64,000 nt of DNA from Bacteroidota bacterium (GTDB lineage Bacteria > Bacteroidota > Bacteroidia > Palsa-965), in NCBI GenBank assembly GCA_006218065.1, contig VBWE01000002.1, forward strand, positions 85,973-149,972, in the 5' to 3' direction. Position 1 is the first letter of the stretch; the number at the start of each line of letters is the position of its first letter. The notes under the pieces were generated by a model. That model was not told the DNA's origin. It made no database searches and saw only the letters and a list, made by a program, of their open reading frames with translations. Of this stretch, positions 3,364 to 39,804 are shown one piece after another. Both the position numbers and the translations under genes were made by a program.

Positions 3364-5112
3364 TTACTTCGTCTTGATCAGCTTCCGGATCGTTTTCCCG
3401 GATTTCGTGATCACGGTCACATAATACGTTCCCGCAGCAAGATTGCTTTTCAGCGTAACCGGTACACGCTGCGCGTGCGTCTTTACTTCAATACGCTCGA
3501 GCAGTTGCCCGTTGCTGCTGCTTATGATGATGCAATCGCCCGTTTCGAAATGGTGATTGATCCACTCCACGGTGATCATGCTCTCGGCCGGGTTCGGGTA
3601 AATGAAAATTTCTTCTGCATCCTGTTTCGCCGGGATGCCGGTTACGCCGCTGCCTTCGGTGATGGTGATGAACTGGTCTGCGGAAATGTTCGTGTATGTT
3701 TCCGCCGTTTGCCCCAGCCATTCCACGATCACGCTGTCGATCATTGTCGCATTACCCAGTCCGAAATGCGCGCGCAGGTCGTGTTGTCCGCAATACGAAG
3801 TCTGCGCCGAAATTTCGCGGAGCTGCCAGGTCGGAACGCCGTTGATCACCGCATGTACGCGGATCTTCGTGCCGATCGCTGCGCGGTTGGTGTTCGTTCC
3901 CGCCAGCCTGATCGTGATCCAGTGATTCGAATTGCCGTCGTTGTGGTATAAAAAGTCGTTTTCATCCATGCTGTTGAAACGACAGGTAGCCACGGCAAGG
4001 TCTTCGAAACCGTCGTTGTCGTAATCGCCGAAAGCGCATCCGTACGACCAGGCCGAATCGTTGGCGAGGATGCTCGTGCTGTTTCGCGTAAAACTGCCGT
4101 TGCCGTTGTTCAGGTAAAAAAAGTTTACCAGCCGGGCCGGTGTCGTGAATGCATTGGTCACAAAAAGATCCAGGTCCCCGTCGTTGTCCACATCCGACCA
4201 GTCGGAACTGAACGAATTTCCGCCGCTGTTCGAAACCGTATCCGAAACGATCTTGGTAAAATTGAAATTTCCGTCGTTGCGGAAGAGCGCGTTATTGCCC
4301 TGGTCGTTGGCGAGAAAAACATCGAGGTCGCCGTCGTTATCGTAATCGCCCCAGCTGCCGCTCATGGTTTTTCCGCCGTCGGTCAGCAGCGCGCCGGTAG
4401 TAATGGAAGTGAAATTTCCGCCACCGTCGTTACGATACAGGTTTTCATTCTGCCCGCTTTCGTTCGTCACAAAAAGATCGAGATCGTTGTCGCTGTCGAT
4501 GTCCGTCCAGTTCACGCAACGCGATTCACGCTGATCGGTCACGGGCGAACCGGTGAGAATTTTCGTGAACGTATGATCGCCGTTATTGTGATAGAGGAAA
4601 TTCCGCATCGTTCCGGCGCTGTTGGTGACATACATGTCCACGTACCCGTCGTTATCGTAATCGCCCCAGGAACCGGTTTCGGAATAACCGCCATCCGTTA
4701 CGATATCGCCGGTTTGAAATATCAGGAAACCGACGAAGAGCGTGCCCCGGTAAAGCATATTGTTTACGTTGTACCAGTTTGCCACGAAACAATCAAGCAC
4801 ACCGTCGTTGTCGTAATCGGCAAAAGTGGCGCCGTCGGAAGGTTTTCCGTCGTTGACGATCGTGTCAAGACTATTTTCAGGAATAAATGTCCCGTTACCG
4901 ATATTCAGATATAACATATTGTCCTGTCCGCCCGAAGGACCGTTCGTGATGAAACAATCTACCAGGTTGTCGTTGTTCACATCCACCCAGTTCACCGAAC
5001 GCGAATCACCCGGCGTATTGACCAGCGGCCCGGTCGTGACTTTGGTAAAATTCTGCGCGGAAGAAACAGCGACCGCAAAGCAAACAGCGAAAAGAGTAAA
5101 AGTCGTTTTCAT
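3364..5112 (-). CDS. FG-GAP/VCBS (CRTAC1/ASPIC-like) repeat protein with T9SS C-terminal sorting domain
   Basis: Repeated DxDxDGxxD motifs (GDYDNDG, DVDNDGDLD, TDIDSDNDLD). Signal peptide MKTTFTLFAVCFAVAVSSAQ at the internal start. C-terminus IYPNPAESMITVEW...GTYYVTVITKSGKTIRKLIKTK is typical of a Por_Secre_tail. Confidence 0.7.
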   Translation of the reverse strand: MKTTFTLFAVCFAVAVSSAQNFTKVTTGPLVNTPGDSRSVNWVDVNNDNLVDCFITNGPSGGQDNMLYLNIGNGTFIPENSLDTIVNDGKPSDGATFADYDNDGVLDCFVANWYNVNNMLYRGTLFVGFLIFQTGDIVTDGGYSETGSWGDYDNDGYVDMYVTNSAGTMRNFLYHNNGDHTFTKILTGSPVTDQRESRCVNWTDIDSDNDLDLFVTNESGQNENLYRNDGGGNFTSITTGALLTDGGKTMSGSWGDYDNDGDLDVFLANDQGNNALFRNDGNFNFTKIVSDTVSNSGGNSFSSDWSDVDNDGDLDLFVTNAFTTPARLVNFFYLNNGNGSFTRNSTSILANDSAWSYGCAFGDYDNDGFEDLAVATCRFNSMDENDFLYHNDGNSNHWITIRLAGTNTNRAAIGTKIRVHAVINGVPTWQLREISAQTSYCGQHDLRAHFGLGNATMIDSVIVEWLGQTAETYTNISADQFITITEGSGVTGIPAKQDAEEIFIYPNPAESMITVEWINHHFETGDCIIISSSNGQLLERIEVKTHAQRVPVTLKSNLAAGTYYVTVITKSGKTIRKLIKTK

Positions 5113-5457: not shown

Positions 5458-6534
5458 ATGACCAAACGAATCCTGCTCCATCTTGCGTTCTGGCTGATCT
5501 ATTTCTGCATCGTCCTTTATAACGACTTATTTCTCTCCGCTTCTTTTCTTGCCAATCCTTCCTGGCCCTGGGCGTCGAAAGCAATCCTGGCGCAATCACT
5601 CCTGCTGCTGATCAAAATCGCGACCGTTTATTATACGCTTTACCTACTCATCCCGCACTGGATGAAAGCGCGGTCGAAAATCGTTCCCGTGCTCGAAACG
5701 CTGGCTTTGTGTATCGTTGCGCTGGTGCTTTACCGGCTTATGATCCAGGTGGTTATCTGGAAATGGATTTACAATTCCGAAGCGGCGCTGAACAACCTTT
5801 CTTTCGTTGCGCGCGCTTTCCATTCGCTGCTCGACATCCTGCAGGTGGCAGGTGTTGCCGCGGCGATCAAACTGCTGCGCCTGCGCCTGGCTGCCGCGCA
5901 AAAAGAAAAAGCGCTCGTCAGGGAAAAATTGTCTTCCGAAATTCTGCACCTGAAATCACAGGTCAACCCGCATTTCCTTTTTAATTCACTGAACAGCGTT
6001 TTTGCGCTTTCGCGGATGCAGTCGGAAAAAACGCCCGACCTGGTCATGCGGCTTTCCAATATCCTGCGGTATATGCTTTACCAGTCGGAGAAAGAATTCA
6101 GCACGATCGGCGAAGAAGTAAAGATCATCCGCGATTATATTGAACTGCAGCAGCTTCGTTTCGGCGACCGCGTAACAGTAAAAACGGAGATCAATATCGA
6201 TGAACCTGCTGCACAGATCACGCCGCTGCTGCTTTTGCCGCTGGTGGAAAACGCATTCAAGCACGGGGTCGGCGGCGTAGCCGGGAATACGGAGATCAGC
6301 ATACGGATCGCTTTCCGCGACGGCCGGCTGGTGATGCAAACCGGTAACGCAGTATCCGCAGAAAATACGCCGGAAACCGGTGAAACAGGAATCGGCCTGT
6401 CGAATATCCGCCGGCAGCTGGAGTTGTTGTACAAGGACTATACCTTTACTGCAGAAAAAAAAGAACAGGTTTTTTCCGTTAACCTGCACATCAATATAAA
6501 ATCGTATGCCGGGACTGAACTGTATCATCATTGA
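5458..6534 (+). CDS. LytS/YehU-family sensor histidine kinase (5-6 TM plus His_kinase/HATPase)
   Basis: N-terminal polytopic membrane region, QVNPHFLFNSLNSV (LytS-type H-box), and a C-terminal GxG ATPase region. Confidence 0.75.
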   Translation: MTKRILLHLAFWLIYFCIVLYNDLFLSASFLANPSWPWASKAILAQSLLLLIKIATVYYTLYLLIPHWMKARSKIVPVLETLALCIVALVLYRLMIQVVIWKWIYNSEAALNNLSFVARAFHSLLDILQVAGVAAAIKLLRLRLAAAQKEKALVREKLSSEILHLKSQVNPHFLFNSLNSVFALSRMQSEKTPDLVMRLSNILRYMLYQSEKEFSTIGEEVKIIRDYIELQQLRFGDRVTVKTEINIDEPAAQITPLLLLPLVENAFKHGVGGVAGNTEISIRIAFRDGRLVMQTGNAVSAENTPETGETGIGLSNIRRQLELLYKDYTFTAEKKEQVFSVNLHINIKSYAGTELYHH

Positions 6535-35392: not shown

Positions 35393-36820
35393 TCAATCTT
35401 CACGGCTTCCGTCATCCGCCATGCGCACCATTTTCGGTGTGAAGGTCGCGATCACGTCCACCAGCTCCTGCTGTGCAGCCATCACCGTGCGGATGTCTTT
35501 GTACGCCATCGGCGCTTCATCCAGTCCCGCACCGATGAGCGTTACACCGTGCTCTTTCAGCACTGCGCGCATTTCCGCACCGGTGATGTTTTTGATGGCC
35601 TGCGTACGGCTCATCTGGCGGCCTGCGCCGTGTGAAGCGGAATTGATAGCTGAAGCTTCTCCTTTTCCGCGCACCAGGAATCCCGGCGCAGTCATCGATC
35701 CCGGGATGATGCCCATCACGTCTTTCGATGCCGGCGTAGCGCCTTTGCGGTGCACGATCACGTCCTGCCCGTTCCAGGTTTCTTTCCAGGCGAAGTTGTG
35801 GTGGTTTTCCACTTTCGCCAGCACGGTTGCGCCGATCGCTTTCACCAGGCGCTCGTGGATCACTTCGTGGCAGGCCGAAGCATAATCACCGGCGAGGTTC
35901 ATCGCCAGCCAGTACTCCTGGCCTTCTGCGCTGTCTAGGTCCAGCCAGGCGAGGTTCACCGCTTCTTTCGGCAGTTTGCAAAGCGACTTCGCCAGTTTGG
36001 TGTAATACCCGGCAACCGTAGCGCCGAAACCGCGCGAACCGGAATGCGTGAGCAGGGCAAGGTATTTCCCTTTGCGGATATTCAGTTTGGCATCATCGGT
36101 TTCAAATTCGATGATACCCCATTCCGCGAAATGGTTTCCGCCGCCGGAAGTTCCCAGCTGCGAAGCGGCTTTCTCAAAAAGTCCTTTGATGAACGGCGTC
36201 GCGTTAAACTCATCGCGTGCGAGGATCGCATGATCGGCTTTGTGTTTCCCGTTCCATCCTGCACCCGCACCGAATTTGGTGAAAGCGATCAGTTCGCGCT
36301 TATACATGTTTTCATTTTGCAGGAAGTGATTTTCCGGGATATCGAAAACCGACAAAGCCATACGGCAGCCGATATCCACACCCACGCCGTACGGAATCAC
36401 CGTGTTGTTCGTGGCCAGCACACCGCCGATCGGCAGTCCGTATCCCTGGTGCGCGTCCGGCATTAAAGCGCCGGCCACGGTAACCGGGAGTTTCATCGCC
36501 ACGTCCATCTGCGCGATTGCACCCGGTTCGATATTTCCTGCGCCGAAAACCGTATATGCCCCGGCAGTTTCGTTCAATGCAATTTCTGCGGTATCATCTT
36601 CTTCCGGCTTTTCAACCAGGTCGCTTGCAACAGCGGATAAAACGGTATCGTCCAGGAAATTCTCCGGCGACTGTACCAGTTTCACGAGGATAGCGAGCAC
36701 TTCTTCGCGCGACAGGTTGCGGTAGTGCTGATCGATCGTACGGATCGCCGTTCCGATCGCTTTTCCCTCCGGGAAGCCGATGTTTTTCAGGTCTTCTCCT
36801 TTAATGTTCAGCTTGTTCAT
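35393..36820 (-). CDS. rtcB: RtcB-family RNA 3'-phosphate ligase
   Basis: 475 aa with conserved RtcB blocks (HGAGR at SASHGAGRQMSR, metal-binding His/Asp/Cys positions, C-terminal His). Confidence 0.9.
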   Translation of the reverse strand: MNKLNIKGEDLKNIGFPEGKAIGTAIRTIDQHYRNLSREEVLAILVKLVQSPENFLDDTVLSAVASDLVEKPEEDDTAEIALNETAGAYTVFGAGNIEPGAIAQMDVAMKLPVTVAGALMPDAHQGYGLPIGGVLATNNTVIPYGVGVDIGCRMALSVFDIPENHFLQNENMYKRELIAFTKFGAGAGWNGKHKADHAILARDEFNATPFIKGLFEKAASQLGTSGGGNHFAEWGIIEFETDDAKLNIRKGKYLALLTHSGSRGFGATVAGYYTKLAKSLCKLPKEAVNLAWLDLDSAEGQEYWLAMNLAGDYASACHEVIHERLVKAIGATVLAKVENHHNFAWKETWNGQDVIVHRKGATPASKDVMGIIPGSMTAPGFLVRGKGEASAINSASHGAGRQMSRTQAIKNITGAEMRAVLKEHGVTLIGAGLDEAPMAYKDIRTVMAAQQELVDVIATFTPKMVRMADDGSRED

Positions 36821-36949
36821 CGTGTTTTGTTTTTATTTGATGAAGCAAAGTACCGGCAGCACTGCGCAAAGTAATTGCGCAGATGAAAAATAATTTGTTA
36901 AAATTACTCTCGCATTTAAAAGTACGTGCTTTTGCCCTCTTCCGGCGGG

Positions 36950-36990
36950 TTGAAAAAAGTGGGACCGGCCTGCCGAAGCAAACCGGTCCC
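36950..36990 (-). terminator. rho-independent terminator after the SPFH gene (GGGACCGG...CCGGTCCC plus UUUUUU on minus strand)
   Basis: 8-bp GC stem with a 14-nt loop. Followed on the minus strand by ACTTTTTTCAA. Confidence 0.55.
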
Positions 36991-37039
36991 GGGGTTAAGC
37001 GGGTGAAACACCCGCAGGGATTCACGTTAATGCCGGGAC

Positions 37040-38143
37040 TTATTTTTGTTCCGGTACGAAGAGCTGCCTGAGCTGATCGGAAAGCTGGCTGTTTCCGGAT
37101 ACGGAGATGGTGTTGATTTTCTCCGCGATCTTTTCCACGAATTCCATTTCCTTCAACCTGAACAGCATCTGGTTTTCTTCCATCAGCTTTGCGGTGTTCA
37201 GCAGGCTGCGCGTCGAAGCGGTTTCTTCACGTCTCATGATGGTGTTGGCCTGCGCTTTCTTTTCGGCCACCAGCACGCGGTTCATGATTTCTTTCACTTC
37301 ACCGGGAAGAATAATATCCCGGATACCGCAGTTCAGGATTACCGTACCAAGCGCCTCTGCCTCGGCTGTGATCGTGCTGCGGACAGCATCGGCCACACCG
37401 TCTTTCCGGTCGAGCAGTTCATCGAGCGTAAGTTTGCCGACGAATTCCCTCAGCTTCAGCTGGAGCAGGACGTAAAGCTGCTTTTCGAAATCTTTGTTTT
37501 CGGTGAGCGCTTTTTCCACGTCCTTCACCCGGTACTGGGCGAACATACTCAGTCGCAGGCTGGCTTTGTCGCGGGTCAGCAATTCCTGGCCGGCGATTTC
37601 AAGCTGCACCTGCCGCATATCCGCTTTCAGCACGGCAACCATCGTGTCGTTCTTCCAGAAAAAATAGTTGCCCGGTTCGAGCGTTTGTTCGAGCTTACCG
37701 TTTACCAGGAGCAGACCTTTTTCCCAGGATTCGACCGTGTACACACGGATGAACTGGACCAGTTCCCTGCGCTGGAGCAGGGCAGGACCGAACTCCGCAG
37801 GAATACGGATTTCGTTCGTATCGGCAGTTACGAAATTTCTGTTTACTACGCCTTTCCAGAAAACGTATTTGCCTACCGTGAGAATCGATTTCACGATACC
37901 GTCTTCAAAACGGACGGCGATCTCGTTGTCTTTCACGATCACGACTTCCAGGGCTTCGGCCAGCCCGGCGTTTTTCAGCAAAAGGTTCAGGTCATGCCGC
38001 GACGTAAAGGGCTGCGTCATGTCATATACTTCCACGCGGTCGAACGGGGAGAGGAAGTACAAACCTTCGCGGAGTACTTTTTTCAGCGCGCCGTTCCGGA
38101 ATACCAGTCCGGCTTTGTACGCATTGATTCTTACGATAGTCAT
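37040..38143 (-). CDS. cytoplasmic SPFH/band-7 (slipin/flotillin-like) domain protein with repeated N-terminal beta-motifs
   Basis: C-terminal half has SPFH features (SLRLSMFAQYRV...TAEAEALGTVILNCGIRDIILPGEV...AEKKAQANTIMRRE). No N-terminal TM. The N-terminal 150 aa carries three G(K/N)Y(V/F)FWK-like repeats. Confidence 0.6.
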   Translation of the reverse strand: MTIVRINAYKAGLVFRNGALKKVLREGLYFLSPFDRVEVYDMTQPFTSRHDLNLLLKNAGLAEALEVVIVKDNEIAVRFEDGIVKSILTVGKYVFWKGVVNRNFVTADTNEIRIPAEFGPALLQRRELVQFIRVYTVESWEKGLLLVNGKLEQTLEPGNYFFWKNDTMVAVLKADMRQVQLEIAGQELLTRDKASLRLSMFAQYRVKDVEKALTENKDFEKQLYVLLQLKLREFVGKLTLDELLDRKDGVADAVRSTITAEAEALGTVILNCGIRDIILPGEVKEIMNRVLVAEKKAQANTIMRREETASTRSLLNTAKLMEENQMLFRLKEMEFVEKIAEKINTISVSGNSQLSDQLRQLFVPEQK

Positions 38144-38419
38144 ATTACTCGGTATTAAAAATTACAGTTCAAAAATCCCGGGTGCAGTTCGGAGTAGCCC
38201 ATCCATTGCAGGGGGGAATCGGCTTGAGCGGAGATTTGCCGTTTTGTTTCGATGAATCGGTTTTATCACTCATCCAAAGAAAACAACGCATGCTTCGCGG
38301 TATCTGCTTTTTCACTGACCCTGGTCCGGATTGTCCTGCCCGCCGGAGCGGACACGACCGGGTTACTCCTCCCCGGCAACCGGTTCTGCCATTTTTATAG
38401 AAGAGGCAGGCTTCTTACC

Positions 38420-38490
38420 CTGGATTAACAGTCCAGTGCTCTAACCAACTGAGCTATCCGAAAGATGGTCGGAACGGGATTCGAACCCGT
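38420..38490 (-). ncRNA. circularly permuted tRNA-Asn-like element (T-arm, acceptor-like hairpin, D-arm, GUU anticodon arm); candidate Y-RNA/YrlA-like tRNA mimic upstream of the SPFH-rtcB genes
   Basis: Minus strand reads ACGGG-TTCGAAT-CCCGT (canonical T-arm), TCCGA-CCATCTT-TCGGA (5-bp acceptor-like stem closed by a loop beginning CCA), TA, GCTC-AGTTGGTTA-GAGC (canonical D-arm), A, CTGGA-CTGTTAA-TCCAG (anticodon arm, GUU). All loops are canonical only on the minus strand. The 5'-to-3' order is T-arm before D-arm, which is a circular permutation of a tRNA. No 7-bp acceptor pairing is possible, so it is not a tRNA gene. Confidence 0.55.
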
Positions 38491-38623
38491 GACACTTGGT
38501 GCAGATACAGGTTATACAGACAGCATATTGCCATCGAAAACATCGGGCAACACTGCGGGGCCGTCAAAGACCCGCGCCGGGTTCATGCATAGCTGTGATC
38601 AGCGGTGCAAAGGTTTCCGGAAA

Positions 38624-38748
38624 CTGCGCAAGCTACCTGCGCAGCAAATGTTTTTCCGGAAAAACAATTTAAAATGCTGGTAATGAAGCGGAAAAAATGC
38701 ACCTGGTTCCGGGCAGCAGGATTAATTACGCAAGTACATTGCGCAGTT
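38624..38748. promoter_or_regulatory. two copies of a 23-bp unit (CTGCGCAAGCTACCTGCGCAGCA at 38624-38646, TTACGCAAGTACATTGCGCAGTT at 38726-38748), each an inverted repeat of GCGCAAG/TGCGCAG; candidate operator of the divergent WYL regulator
   Basis: Units are 16/23 identical and internally palindromic (TGCGCA...TGCGCA). Located in the 645-bp divergent intergenic region between the ncRNA/SPFH/rtcB side and the WYL gene. TTCCGGAA palindromes also occur at 38615 and 38654. Confidence 0.4.
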
Positions 38749-38787
38749 GTCGTGATAGACTATCTTTAAAACAGCAAAAACAAAAGT

Positions 38788-39804
38788 ATGTCCATCAATA
38801 AACTCGCCCTGATCCGTTATAAAACGATCGACAACTGCCTGCAGAACCGTTTCCGGAAATGGACGCTGGAAGACCTGATCGAAGCCTGTTCGGAAGCGGT
38901 GTACGAATACGAAGGCATTACATCCGGCGTGAGCCGGCGGACCGTGCAGCTCGATATCCAGAACATGCGCAGCGAAAAACTGGGTTATAATGCACCGATC
39001 ATCGTAACGGATAAAAAATATTACAGCTACGAAGAAAAGAACTACAGCATCACGAATACGCCGCTCACGCAGCAGGATCTCGGAACGCTGAATGAGGTGC
39101 TCGGTGTGCTGAAGCAGTTCAAGGGTTTCGGTTATTTCCAGGAACTGACGGGCATGGTTACACGGCTGGAAGATAAACTGTACAAGCAGCAGCACAAAGG
39201 CCGTTCGTACATCGACTTCGAGAAAAACGAATTACTGAAAGGACTCAGCTACATCGATCCGCTGCACAAAGCGATTCTCGCGAAAAAAACGATCGAGTTG
39301 GTTTATAAATCCTTCAAAGCGAAAGACGCCAGCACGATCGTTTTTTATCCATACCTGCTTAAAGAATACCGCAACCGCTGGTTCATACTGGGCTCCAACG
39401 TGAAAGGCCGCCGCGCGCTGATCCTCGCACTCGACCGTATCGAACAGATGCGCGAACTGGAATCGGTGAAGTATGTTAAATGCGCGTTTGATGTAAGCAC
39501 GTACTTTGATGATACGATCGGGGTTTCCAAAGTCCCCAACCAGAAAGCGCAGCTCATCGTGATGCAGATCAACAACGAACATGCGCCGTATGTGATCACC
39601 AAGCCGATGCACCACAGCCAGCAGGTTTTAAAACAGGACGCCGCAGGCATGATCTTCTCCATCGAAGTGATCTGGAATTTCGAACTGGAGCGCGAAATTC
39701 TCGGTATGGGCGAAAACCTGAAAGTCCTCAGTCCGCGCAGGCTCGCCGGGAAAATCCAGTCGAGGATGAAACGGGCTGCAGAGCATTACCGGGATAAAAG
39801 ATAA
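38788..39804 (+). CDS. WYL-domain transcriptional regulator (N-terminal HTH, central WYL, C-terminal WCX-like extension)
   Basis: HTH region at the N-terminus. WYL signature IVFYPYLLKEYRNRWFILG. About 100-aa C-terminal extension. 338 aa. Confidence 0.75.
   Translation: MSINKLALIRYKTIDNCLQNRFRKWTLEDLIEACSEAVYEYEGITSGVSRRTVQLDIQNMRSEKLGYNAPIIVTDKKYYSYEEKNYSITNTPLTQQDLGTLNEVLGVLKQFKGFGYFQELTGMVTRLEDKLYKQQHKGRSYIDFEKNELLKGLSYIDPLHKAILAKKTIELVYKSFKAKDASTIVFYPYLLKEYRNRWFILGSNVKGRRALILALDRIEQMRELESVKYVKCAFDVSTYFDDTIGVSKVPNQKAQLIVMQINNEHAPYVITKPMHHSQQVLKQDAAGMIFSIEVIWNFELEREILGMGENLKVLSPRRLAGKIQSRMKRAAEHYRDKR

What the first reader, a model, noticed from the sequence alone, without database searches (positions are those of the whole stretch)
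35393..39804. rtcB locus with a circularly permuted tRNA-Asn mimic RNA and a divergent WYL regulator: candidate RNA-repair module that senses tRNA-like RNA
On the minus strand at 38490 to 38420 the RNA reads T-arm (ACGGG-TTCGAAT-CCCGT), a 5-bp acceptor-like hairpin closed by a CCAUCUU loop, a canonical D-arm (GCUC-AGUUGGUUA-GAGC) and a GUU anticodon arm. The order is T-arm before D-arm, exactly a circular permutation of a tRNA. All three loops are canonical only in this orientation. No 7-bp acceptor can form, so it is not a tRNA gene and not an integration junction, which would restore normal order. Permuted tRNA-like modules are the hallmark of bacterial Y-RNA-like YrlA RNAs, which sit in rsr-rtcB operons. 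Here the RNA lies directly upstream of, and co-oriented with, a cytoplasmic SPFH protein gene and rtcB (RNA 3'-P ligase). No Ro/TROVE (rsr) gene is present. The sigma54/CARF activator RtcR seen in enterobacteria is also absent. In its place, the divergent gene is a WYL-domain regulator. WYL domains, like CARF, are predicted nucleic-acid/ligand sensors. The divergent intergenic region carries two copies of a palindromic 23-bp unit that could be its operator. The combination of tRNA-mimic ncRNA, SPFH protein, RtcB and a WYL sensor regulator has not been described as a system, as far as I know.
Basis: partly seen in the sequence, partly recalled or inferred. Interest (0 to 1): 0.85.

Follow-up and report, generated by a model that had tools for sequence, protein, structure and literature searches.

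The report
tRNA-like leader RNA of SPFH–RtcB operon
A real, conserved RNA that imitates a rearranged tRNA sits in front of a scaffold-protein gene and an RNA-ligase gene under a WYL-type regulator; this kind of RNA-repair module was already predicted by comparative genomics in 2016, so the locus is a new example, not a new system.

Summary
On the minus strand at 38490-38420 lie a canonical T arm, a loop-closed 5-bp acceptor-like hairpin, a canonical D arm and a GUU anticodon-like arm, in permuted order. ARAGORN calls no tRNA. Rfam YrlA matches at 39.8 bits, below its gathering score of 69.

The element is conserved, not a scar. A covariance model of the module hits the same strand upstream of the orthologous SPFH gene in 78 of 80 Bacteroidota loci, with strong covariation.

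It is one domain of a longer leader. Downstream come a conserved H-type pseudoknot and a GAUACC block. Other loci carry 2-5 tandem modules, and some add an atypical tRNA-Tyr-like cloverleaf.

The palindrome is CTRCGCA-N7-TGCGYAG. It occurs in 29 of 30 loci with the divergent WYL gene. It sits 10-11 nt upstream of a conserved ACCTTTG box that resembles a Bacteroidota -7 promoter element.

The claim of an undescribed system fails. Burroughs and Aravind (2016), as cited by Wang et al. (2018), described RtcB with a Band-7 protein and a tRNA-like RNA, occasionally YrlA. One locus here carries Ro60/TROVE beside the same modules.

Possibly new details are the WYL operator and promoter geometry, the pseudoknot, and the tight RNA-SPFH linkage. 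Function remains untested.

The parts
35393..36820 (-). rtcB, an RNA 3'-phosphate/2',3'-cyclic phosphate ligase of 475 aa. About 100 N-terminal residues lie outside the Pfam RtcB match.
   Evidence: Pfam PF01139, E = 1.4e-79, residues 108-465. PDB relatives are PH1602 and TTHA1785 RtcB.
37040..38143 (-). SPFH/Band-7 ('slipin') protein of 367 aa. No hydrophobic segment is visible by eye.
   Evidence: Pfam PF01145, E = 4.7e-35. PDB relatives are stomatin, QmcA and HflK. More than 7000 homologues, mostly from Bacteroidota.
38298..38307 (-). Conserved GCAGAUACCG block in the leader, downstream of the pseudoknot.
   Evidence: A GATACC block is present at a similar position in 43 of 81 leaders. It is invariant in the 4-way alignment.
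38386..38414 (-). H-type pseudoknot. Hairpin GAAG-CCTGCCT-CTTC is at 38414-38400, the A-rich linker UAUAAAAAU at 38399-38391, and GGCAG at 38390-38386 pairs with loop CUGCC at 38409-38405.
   Evidence: The motif RRAG-N6-8-CTYY-(N)AAAA is found in 59 of 81 leaders. Loop and downstream sequence form at least 4 contiguous pairs in 48 of 51 distinct loci, against 26% of mismatched locus pairs, with 40 distinct loop sequences.
38420..38436 (-). Anticodon-arm-like hairpin CUGGA/CUGUUAA/UCCAG, with triplet GUU.
   Evidence: Sequence. Among orthologous loci the hairpin has stem AUGGA/UCCAU and a 7-nt loop. Position 33 is U in 40 of 45, position 37 is a purine in 41 of 45, and the triplet varies.
38438..38454 (-). 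Canonical D arm GCUC/AGUUGGUUA/GAGC.
   Evidence: The D stem is invariant in 31 aligned modules.
38457..38473 (-). Acceptor-like hairpin UCCGA-CCAUCUU-UCGGA, the acceptor stem closed by a loop.
   Evidence: Six aligned pairs, all showing changes on both sides, with 92% of cells paired.
38474..38490 (-). Canonical T arm ACGGG/UUCGAAU/CCCGU.
   Evidence: 100% of cells paired, and three pairs show compensatory changes.
38429..38503 (-). Full extent of the permuted (YrlA-like) module as matched by covariance model R1.
   Evidence: 73.6 bits, E = 2.2e-17, and the only hit in the window.
38608..38615 (-). AACCTTTG box resembling a Bacteroidota -7 promoter element. It is the candidate promoter of the RNA-SPFH-rtcB transcript.
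   Evidence: ACCTTTG or a close variant lies 10-11 nt after the operator in most WYL-bearing loci. Its identification as a -7 box rests on my own knowledge of the TAnnTTTG consensus.
38624..38644 (.). Operator 2, CTGCGCA-GGTAGCT-TGCGCAG, a perfect 7-bp inverted repeat.
38726..38746 (.). Operator 1, CTGCGCA-ATGTACT-TGCGTAA, which begins 42 nt upstream of the WYL start codon.
   Evidence: The same motif lies about 35 nt from the WYL start codon in 29 of 30 loci.
38788..39804 (+). Divergent WYL-WCX transcription regulator of 338 aa.
   Evidence: Pfam WYL E = 3.3e-10 and WCX E = 1.1e-08. The N-terminal HTH_11 match is only E = 0.01 and below cut-off. PADLOC WYL E = 4.8e-20. Orthologues at 48-76% identity lie divergent from SPFH in 31 of 80 loci.

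Best explanation
This is a Bacteroidota member of the Band-7(SPFH)/RtcB RNA-repair modules catalogued by Burroughs and Aravind (2016). Its cognate tRNA-mimicking RNA here is of the YrlA-like, circularly permuted type.

Shown here:
- A leader of about 450 nt lies between a conserved operator/promoter and the SPFH start codon.
- The leader contains a tRNA-like domain with a T arm stacked on a loop-closed acceptor stem, a D arm and an anticodon-like arm. The chain enters and leaves the domain at the variable-loop position.
- Downstream follow an H-type pseudoknot and further conserved blocks.
- No terminator-like site is predicted between the RNA and SPFH.
- The RNA, the SPFH gene, and frequently rtcB and the WYL gene, co-occur across Bacteroidota.

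Inferred:
- The RNA is made as the 5' part of the SPFH-rtcB transcript and is probably processed to a stable species, as yrlA and yrlB are within the Salmonella rsr-yrlBA-rtcBA operon.
- It binds the soluble SPFH oligomer the way Y RNA binds Ro60, giving an RNP that presents or holds tRNA-shaped substrates for RtcB, which seals 2',3'-cyclic-phosphate/3'-phosphate and 5'-OH ends.
- The WYL-WCX regulator binds CTRCGCA-N7-TGCGYAG, which occupies the -33 region of the operon promoter and the regulator's own promoter. It switches the operon on when its WYL domain binds a nucleic-acid-derived damage signal. This would be the functional analogue of the CARF domain of RtcR, which responds to tRNA fragments.
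For: Anatomy of the module:
- In 31 aligned modules, 91.3% of pair cells are paired, against 70% in shuffles and 38-48% when partners are slid. 164 cells show double changes, against 55 expected.

Conservation:
- R1 hits lie upstream of SPFH on the same strand in 78 of 80 loci.
- The pseudoknot shows covariation, and the anticodon-loop architecture is conserved.
- rtcB is present in 48 of 80 loci and the WYL gene in 31 of 80.
- RlaP nucleotidyltransferase pairs lie between SPFH and rtcB in other loci. A TROVE plus vWA_Ro60 gene lies next to five such modules in L030, tying the RNA to Ro/Y-RNA biology.

Regulation:
- The operator is conserved in 29 of 30 loci and sits at a fixed 10-11 nt from the ACCTTTG box.
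- No minus-strand terminator-like site lies between the RNA and SPFH.

Literature:
- Prior description of Band-7 plus RtcB plus a tRNA-like RNA, and of YrlA next to Band-7 (10.1101/312249).
- YrlA anatomy, tRNA-enzyme recognition, and RNase P cleavage of the acceptor-like stem in M. smegmatis (PMC4201824).
- RtcR-CARF responding to tRNA fragments (PMC7790460, abstract).
Against: - There is no expression, processing or binding data of any kind, and the RNA-SPFH interaction is inferred only from linkage.
- rtcB is absent from the fetched flanks of 32 of 80 loci, including many Flavobacterium loci with only the RNA and SPFH. The RNA may therefore serve SPFH, not ligation.
- Conserved blocks continue almost to the SPFH start codon. 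This fits a cis-acting leader as well as a released ncRNA.
- The window's closing stem is weak (3 bp in the family register), so its fold differs from YrlA.
- The ligand of the WYL domain is unknown, and whether the regulator represses or activates cannot be told from sequence.
- The primary 2016 paper could not be read. Equivalence to its 'b7a-tRNA' or to its 'YrlA next to Band-7' class rests on a secondary summary.
Confidence: 0.6

Rival explanations
1. The leader is a cis-acting sensor or bait. It presents a generic tRNA shape with an exposed anticodon-like loop to invading anticodon nucleases or to tRNA-processing enzymes. Cleavage or binding within the leader then changes the stability or translation of the SPFH-rtcB mRNA, or produces the cyclic-phosphate fragment that the WYL domain senses. 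RtcB would reseal the bait.
For: The RNA is always in cis, directly upstream of and co-oriented with SPFH, with no terminator-like site in between. Conserved blocks run to within about 80 nt of the start codon. The anticodon-like loop keeps U33 and a purine at 37 while the triplet varies freely, as expected for a shape mimic instead of a decoder. RtcR is activated by tRNA fragments in Salmonella (PMC7790460).
Against: No nuclease, cleavage site or expression platform (terminator, or a helix sequestering the ribosome-binding site) was identified. Many first modules lack an anticodon arm altogether and end in a closing stem. Variation of the triplet could simply be neutral.
Confidence: 0.2
2. 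It is a bona fide YrlA that works with a Ro60/Rsr protein encoded elsewhere in the genome. SPFH and RtcB would be only neighbours.
For: Rfam YrlA is the best non-tRNA match, E = 4.8e-07. L030 has TROVE plus vWA_Ro60 adjacent to the same modules.
Against: The score is far below the YrlA gathering threshold in the window, and no YrlA hit reached gathering in 13 related loci. TROVE was found in only 1 of 80 loci and not in the 64-kb window. The 5' Rsr-binding motif GNCGAA(N)G is absent from the leader. Linkage to SPFH holds in 78 of 80 loci.
Confidence: 0.07
3. It is a permuted tRNA gene in the Cyanidioschyzon sense. The transcript would be circularised (here by RtcB) and re-opened at the acceptor loop to give a functional tRNA-Asn.
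For: The order is 3' half then 5' half, with the break in the variable loop. A CCA follows the 3' acceptor strand, and an RNA ligase gene lies in the operon. M. smegmatis YrlA is cut by RNase P and receives CCA (PMC4201824).
Against: The acceptor has only 5 bp and no discriminator base. The CCA and the GUU triplet are not conserved in orthologous loci. Most modules have no anticodon arm. The 3' end continues into a conserved pseudoknot.
Confidence: 0.03
4. It is a non-functional remnant of rearranged tandem tRNA genes or of an integration event.
For: Genuine tRNA genes and arrays lie in the same intergenic region in many related loci, so raw material for such rearrangements is nearby.
Against: The module is conserved in 78 of 80 loci across several Bacteroidota orders, with compensatory changes in three helices. 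There is a single copy in the window, and no repeat of it elsewhere.
Confidence: 0.02

Closest known systems
Band-7(SPFH)-RtcB RNA-repair systems with a cognate tRNA-like RNA ('b7a-tRNA'; occasionally YrlA). Burroughs and Aravind, Nucleic Acids Res 2016, as summarised in bioRxiv 10.1101/312249.
   Same: A Band-7 gene lies next to rtcB, with a tRNA-like RNA encoded beside them. RlaP nucleotidyltransferases occur in sister loci. The RNA has never been validated experimentally.
   Different: The window lacks the complete, atypical tRNA-Tyr-like cloverleaf seen in about 14 sister loci, which may be the published b7a-tRNA. It carries only the permuted module plus the pseudoknot. I could not verify from the primary paper whether the WYL regulator, its operator or the pseudoknot were described.
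YrlA (Rfam RF02553), the tRNA-like Y RNA of rsr-(yrlBA)-rtcBA operons (Chen et al. 2014, PMC4201824).
   Same: The order is T arm, loop-closed acceptor-like stem, then D arm, with near-invariant T and D sequences. It is encoded inside an RNA-ligase operon. First modules in sister loci are closed by a covarying stem in the anticodon-stem position, exactly as in YrlA.
   Different: There is no Rsr gene, no GNCGAA(N)G motif and no long 5'/3' Ro-binding stem. The score is below the Rfam gathering threshold. The window's copy keeps a full anticodon-like arm, so the chain enters and leaves at the variable loop. It is followed by a pseudoknot, and its partner protein is SPFH.
RtcR (CARF plus sigma-54 activator) control of rtcBA in enterobacteria (Hughes et al. 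2020, PMC7790460).
   Same: A divergent, ligand-sensing transcription factor sits next to an RtcB operon. The proposed logic is that a damage-derived nucleic-acid signal induces repair genes.
   Different: The regulator here is HTH-WYL-WCX, not CARF-AAA+-HTH. The promoter looks like a housekeeping Bacteroidota promoter, not a sigma-54 promoter. The ligand is unknown.
WYL-domain regulators PafBC, DriD, BrxR and CapW (from my own knowledge).
   Same: The protein has the WYL plus WCX architecture. A palindromic operator lies in the regulator's own divergent promoter region. The operator sits where the upstream promoter element would be, as reported for PafBC-type activation.
   Different: No PDB sequence relative was found at E <= 0.01. 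The operator sequence is different. The controlled genes are for RNA repair, not DNA-damage or phage-defence genes.
Circularly permuted tRNA genes of Cyanidioschyzon merolae, and pseudoknotted viral tRNA-like structures (from my own knowledge).
   Same: The 3' half precedes the 5' half. A pseudoknot adjoins a tRNA-shaped domain.
   Different: There is no evidence for maturation into a decoding tRNA. The acceptor is only 5 bp and loop-closed. The bacterial operon context is also different.

Membership tests
YrlA (Rfam RF02553) | Score at or above the Rfam gathering threshold of 69 bits | tested here: not met
   39.8 bits in the window. No YrlA hit reached gathering in 13 related loci.
YrlA (Rfam RF02553) | Near-invariant T and D stem-loops, with an acceptor-like stem-loop between them (Chen et al. 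2014) | tested here: met
YrlA (Rfam RF02553) | Encoded next to rsr (Ro60/TROVE) | tested here: not met
   tblastn with the L030 TROVE protein finds nothing in the window and only 1 of 80 loci.
YrlA (Rfam RF02553) | 5' GNCGAA(N0-1)G Rsr-binding motif | tested here: not met
   A regex over the leader 38620-38144 (-) gave no match.
YrlA (Rfam RF02553) | tRNA-like domain closed by a stem at the anticodon-stem position that leads to the paired 5'/3' ends | tested here: inconclusive
   The closing stem covaries in the family at 74% paired. In the window only 3 bp fit the register, and a complete anticodon-like hairpin competes with it.
tRNA (RF00005 / ARAGORN) | Cloverleaf with a 7-bp acceptor stem formed by the 5' and 3' ends | tested here: not met
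   ARAGORN finds 0 genes. The Rfam hit of 36.9 bits uses the pseudoknot hairpin as T arm and has two non-standard acceptor pairs marked in the alignment.
Band-7/RtcB RNA-repair system (Burroughs and Aravind 2016) | Band-7/SPFH gene adjacent to an RtcB ligase gene | tested here: met
   Pfam. The arrangement recurs in 48 of 80 loci.
Band-7/RtcB RNA-repair system (Burroughs and Aravind 2016) | Adjacent predicted tRNA-like ncRNA | tested here: met
Band-7/RtcB RNA-repair system (Burroughs and Aravind 2016) | The RNA is the published 'b7a-tRNA' itself | not testable with these tools
   The primary paper is not held. A candidate for it, a covarying atypical tRNA-Tyr-like cloverleaf, is present in about 14 sister loci but absent from the window.
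HTH-WYL-WCX transcription regulators | WYL domain followed by a WCX domain | tested here: met
   PF13280 E = 3.3e-10 and PF25583 E = 1.1e-08.
HTH-WYL-WCX transcription regulators | N-terminal (winged) helix-turn-helix domain | tested here: inconclusive
   HTH_11 E = 0.01, 16 bits, below the cut-off of 25.
HTH-WYL-WCX transcription regulators | Palindromic site in its own promoter region | tested here: met
   Present in 29 of 30 loci. Binding itself was not tested.
RtcB ligase | RtcB catalytic domain | tested here: met
   PF01139, 268.8 bits.
Permuted tRNA genes (C. merolae type) | Matures into a normal-order, aminoacylatable tRNA with a 7-bp acceptor | tested here: not met
   The acceptor has 5 bp. 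The CCA and the anticodon are not conserved. Maturation itself is not testable here.

The most novel reading that the evidence does not exclude
The leader would be a modular tRNA-decoy sensor. SPFH would hold an RNA that displays a generic anticodon loop as bait for anticodon nucleases from phages or competitors. Cleavage would create the 2',3'-cyclic-phosphate fragment that the WYL domain reads to switch on the operon, and RtcB would then reseal both the bait and the cellular tRNAs. This would be a WYL-based, RNA-baited counterpart of RtcR/CARF signalling, with the pseudoknot and the tandem modules tuning bait stability.
Probability: 0.12. Interest if true: 0.8.

Novelty: new member of a known kind. 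Interest (0 to 1): 0.4.

Why it matters
What bacterial RtcB repairs, and why Ro/Y-RNA-like cofactors travel with it, are still open questions. The Band-7-associated tRNA-like RNA has never been shown to exist as a transcript.

This locus and its 80 relatives give a sharply defined, testable object:
- a precise RNA architecture of permuted tRNA domain(s), a covarying pseudoknot and a GAUACC block;
- a protein partner that co-occurs with it in 78 of 80 loci;
- a defined operator/promoter pair for a WYL regulator.

Cultured carriers exist (Chryseolinea, Marivirga, Flavobacterium, Pedobacter, Sphingobacterium). The predictions can therefore be tested directly, and the RNA could be added to Rfam.

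Tried and rejected
- **Primary 2016 paper.** I tried to read it by DOI, PMC id and PubMed id, and it is not held. The 2020 Annual Review is not held either. Literature searches for WYL together with RtcB, SPFH or slipin found no paper describing that combination. This is absence from the held library only.
- **MFE folding.** Folding the 151-nt region gives z = -0.57, which is uninformative. The T, acceptor-like and anticodon-like hairpins appear, but the D arm does not.
- **Promoter scan.** The sigma-70 consensus scan found nothing. This is expected, because Bacteroidota promoters are not covered.
- **Leader downstream of the pseudoknot.** RNAalifold on 4 sequences gave only weak, poorly supported helices. 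I read a possible long-range pairing between AUAUGCUGY (5') and GCAGAUA (3') by eye, with one compensatory change in L030. I did not test it further and do not claim it.
- **Origin from tRNA-Asn.** Alignment of the re-circularised element to the tRNA-Asn genes of three loci showed no special similarity, about 70% identity driven by universal positions. A recent origin from tRNA-Asn is therefore not supported.
- **Other searches.** The WYL protein has no PDB sequence relative at E <= 0.01. The SPFH protein has no relative in viral contigs with a single-protein query. PADLOC gives nothing for SPFH or RtcB.
- **Rejected readings.** I rejected an ordinary tRNA, an att-site scar, and a meaningful 'tRNA-Asn' identity.

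Full report
**1. What is in the sequence**

All RNA features below are read on the minus strand.

| Feature | Coordinates | Sequence |
|---|---|---|
| T arm | 38490-38474 | ACGGG/TTCGAAT/CCCGT |
| Acceptor-like hairpin | 38473-38457 | TCCGA-CCATCTT-TCGGA |
| D arm | 38454-38438 | GCTC/AGTTGGTTA/GAGC |
| Anticodon-like arm | 38436-38420 | CTGGA/CTGTTAA/TCCAG |

- A 7-bp acceptor cannot form.
- ARAGORN reports no tRNA in the whole window.
- Rfam's best non-tRNA match is YrlA: 38511-38416 (-), 39.8 bits, E = 4.8e-07, against a gathering score of 69.
- The Rfam tRNA model reaches 36.9 bits at 38463-38392 (-). It does so only by taking a downstream GAAG-N7-CTTC hairpin as the T arm and a mismatched acceptor.
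- Pfam confirms RtcB (35393-36820, -), Band_7/SPFH (37040-38143, -) and a WYL plus WCX protein (38788-39804, +).
- The flanking genes are a CAP-domain protein and a DUF4476 protein, so this is an ordinary chromosomal context.
- The organism is a Bacteroidetes MAG.

**2. Is the element more than chance or a scar?**

I fetched 80 genome loci anchored only on homologues of the SPFH protein, at 51-62% identity, from several Bacteroidota orders.

- A strict regular expression already found the order T arm, hairpin, D arm on the SPFH strand in 34 of the 80 loci, in nearly all cases 350-550 nt upstream of the SPFH gene.
- I aligned 31 modules (A2). The four-helix structure is a closing stem, the T arm, the acceptor-like hairpin and the D arm.
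- In that alignment 91.3% of cells are paired, against 70.1% in shuffles (0 of 500 shuffles reach it) and 38-48% when partners are slid. 164 cells show double-sided changes, against 55 expected.
- All six pairs of the acceptor-like hairpin and three T-stem pairs show compensatory changes.
- The covariance model R1 built from this alignment scores the window at 73.6 bits, with a single hit in 64 kb.
- R1 finds a module within about 700 nt upstream of SPFH, on the same strand, in 78 of 80 loci. L058 has none, and in L077 it lies 1.6 kb upstream.

**3. The RNA is larger and modular**

- **Tandem modules.** Many loci carry two to five tandem modules.
- **Two module types.** In first modules the D arm is followed by a strand that pairs with the sequence just 5' of the T arm, and this closing stem covaries. 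That is the YrlA topology. The last module is instead followed by an anticodon-arm-like hairpin.
- **The window's version.** The window has only one module, and it is of the 'last' type. Its close relatives L001 and L002 have a first module plus a degenerate second one.
- **Anticodon-like hairpin.** It is conserved, with stem AUGGA/UCCAU, a 7-nt loop, U at position 33 in 40 of 45 loci and a purine at position 37 in 41 of 45. The triplet varies freely (GAA, CAA, AAA, GUU, ACG, GUA, CAU and others). 'Asn' therefore has no special meaning.
- **Pseudoknot.** Next comes a hairpin RRAG-N6-8-CUYY followed by an A-rich linker, present in 59 of 81 leaders. The hairpin loop is complementary to the bases just after the linker. 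At least 4 contiguous pairs form in 48 of 51 distinct loci, against 26% of 2524 mismatched locus pairs, with 40 different loop sequences. This is an H-type pseudoknot. In the window it spans 38414-38386.
- **GAUACC block.** It follows in 43 of 81 leaders, and in the window it is GCAGAUACCG at 38307-38298.
- **No matching Rfam family.** Nothing covers these downstream parts.
- **No terminator.** No terminator-like site lies on the minus strand between the RNA and SPFH.

**4. Regulator and operator**

- Orthologues of the WYL protein, at 48-76% identity over the full length, lie divergently upstream of SPFH in 31 of 80 loci.
- The inverted repeat CTRCGCA-N7-TGCGYAG occurs in 29 of 30 loci where the WYL gene is adjacent. 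It usually lies about 35 nt from the WYL start codon.
- The window has two copies, at 38746-38726 and 38644-38624, as do L001, L002, L004, L049, L055, L057 and L066; L064 also has two copies, but overlapping ones.
- The SPFH-proximal operator sits at a fixed 10-11 nt from a conserved ACCTTTG box, which in the window is at 38615-38608. This box resembles the Bacteroidota -7 element TAnnTTTG, a comparison that rests on my own knowledge.
- The operator thus occupies the -33 region of the promoter of the RNA-SPFH transcript.
- This geometry fits either occlusion (a repressor) or PafBC-like activation from the upstream-element position. Sequence alone cannot decide between them.

**5. Other partners in sister loci**

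- rtcB lies within the fetched flanks in 48 of 80 loci.
- Pairs of RlaP nucleotidyltransferases lie between SPFH and rtcB in L045 and L009, and by tblastn in 8-9 loci overall.
- In L030 a TROVE plus vWA_Ro60 (Rsr) gene sits between the WYL gene and five modules.
- Neither TROVE nor RlaP is detectable in the window, and the Rsr-binding motif GNCGAA(N)G is absent from the leader.
- Many Flavobacterium loci have only the RNA and SPFH.
- The invariant pair is therefore the RNA plus SPFH.

**6. What is already known**

- Wang et al. [quoted passage not shown] - As I recall it, the abstract of the 2016 paper names SPFH/Band-7 modules with 'a novel tRNA-like molecule' as scaffolding cofactors, and also names RlaP. 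The paper itself is not held.
- About 14 of the 80 loci also carry, on the same strand, a complete but atypical tRNA-Tyr-like cloverleaf. It has a 7-bp acceptor, a 5-bp D stem, an invariant CUGUAAA loop and covariation in all four stems. ARAGORN calls it tRNA-Tyr in these loci. Rfam gave it only 41.5 bits in L020, and listed no match at or above the gathering score in L015. This may be the published b7a-tRNA. The window lacks it.
- The window therefore corresponds to the 'YrlA-like RNA next to Band-7' variant of a known, computationally defined system.
- Chen et al. 2014 (PMC4201824) give the YrlA anatomy. They show that tRNA enzymes recognise it (TruB and DusA, plus RNase P and CCA addition in M. 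smegmatis).
- Hughes et al. 2020 (PMC7790460) show that RtcR-CARF responds to damaged tRNA.

**7. Mechanism**

- **Shown:** the anatomy, conservation, linkage and operator/promoter geometry.
- **Inferred:** the RNA is transcribed with SPFH-rtcB and probably processed. It forms an RNP with the soluble SPFH oligomer, analogous to Ro60-Y RNA, which assists RtcB on tRNA-shaped substrates. The WYL regulator couples a nucleic-acid damage signal to transcription.
- **Main rival (probability 0.2):** the leader acts in cis as a bait or sensor.
- **Minor rivals:** YrlA working for a distant Rsr, a maturing permuted tRNA, and a dead remnant. The tests listed in the membership table count against each.

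**8. Verdict**

- Novelty: this is a new member of a known, still experimentally untested kind.
- Details that may be new are the WYL operator/promoter pair, the covarying pseudoknot, the tandem-module architecture and the near-obligate RNA-SPFH linkage.
- Interest is 0.4.

Noticed in passing
L012, L014, L015, L018, L020, L024, L027, L028, L034, L037, L042 (e.g. L015:4066-4149), plus L062: An atypical tRNA-Tyr-like cloverleaf lies co-oriented upstream of the permuted modules. It has a 7-bp acceptor, an unusual 5-bp D stem, an invariant CUGUAAA loop and covariation in all stems. ARAGORN calls it tRNA-Tyr. Rfam's tRNA model gives it a low score (L020, 41.5 bits) or lists nothing at gathering (L015). 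It is possibly the published 'b7a-tRNA', and it is absent from the window.
   Followed up: partly
L010:3453-3774, L013:3199-3806, L028:3741-4444, L041:3098-3943 and 6147-6299, L008:6157-6425, L069, L076, L078: Arrays of 3-6 tRNA genes called by ARAGORN lie co-oriented inside or beside the SPFH operon region in many loci. The anticodons include Asn, Asp, Tyr, Lys, Gln, Glu, Phe, Met, Ile, Pro and Leu. Some have odd T loops, for example the L013 tRNA-Asn. It is unknown whether these are housekeeping copies or spare tRNAs.
   Followed up: no
L030:1821-3338 and 3759-4686: A Ro60-like gene (TROVE plus vWA_Ro60) sits between the WYL gene and five tandem permuted modules, ahead of SPFH. It is the only 1 of 80 loci that joins Ro and SPFH.
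   Followed up: partly
L045:6161-7973, L009:7216-9026, also L008, L014, L031, L049, L055, L066: Two adjacent RlaP (PF10127) nucleotidyltransferase genes are inserted between SPFH and rtcB or placed after rtcB. They are absent from the window.
   Followed up: partly
window 36500-36820 (-): The RtcB protein has an N-terminal extension of about 100 residues outside the Pfam RtcB match. The RtcB homologues matched at 50-78% identity over nearly the full length suggest it is shared. The only hint is a non-significant match to the C-terminal domain of CCA-adding enzymes (tRNA_NucTran2_2, E = 0.16). Other loci carry a different, shorter RtcB clade at about 36% identity.
   Followed up: partly
window 38614-38623 and 38653-38662: Two exact copies of the palindrome TTTCCGGAAA flank operator 2. 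One of them overlaps the ACCTTTG box region. I did not check whether this is conserved elsewhere.
   Followed up: no
window 38466-38468 (-): A CCA follows the 3' acceptor-like strand inside the hairpin loop. It is not conserved in the other 30 aligned modules, so it is probably coincidental.
   Followed up: yes
window 38525-38517 and 38307-38301 (-): A possible long-range helix joins AUAUGCUGU to GCAGAUA and would enclose the whole tRNA-like plus pseudoknot region. One compensatory change is seen in L030 (UAUUCCGC / GCGGAUA). It rests on only four alignable sequences.
   Followed up: partly
L003:4612-4698, L039:4610-4700: ARAGORN calls the last module plus the pseudoknot region a long-arm tRNA (Leu-CAA, Ile-GAU). 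In these loci the acceptor-like hairpin has a full 7 bp with a 3-nt loop.
   Followed up: partly
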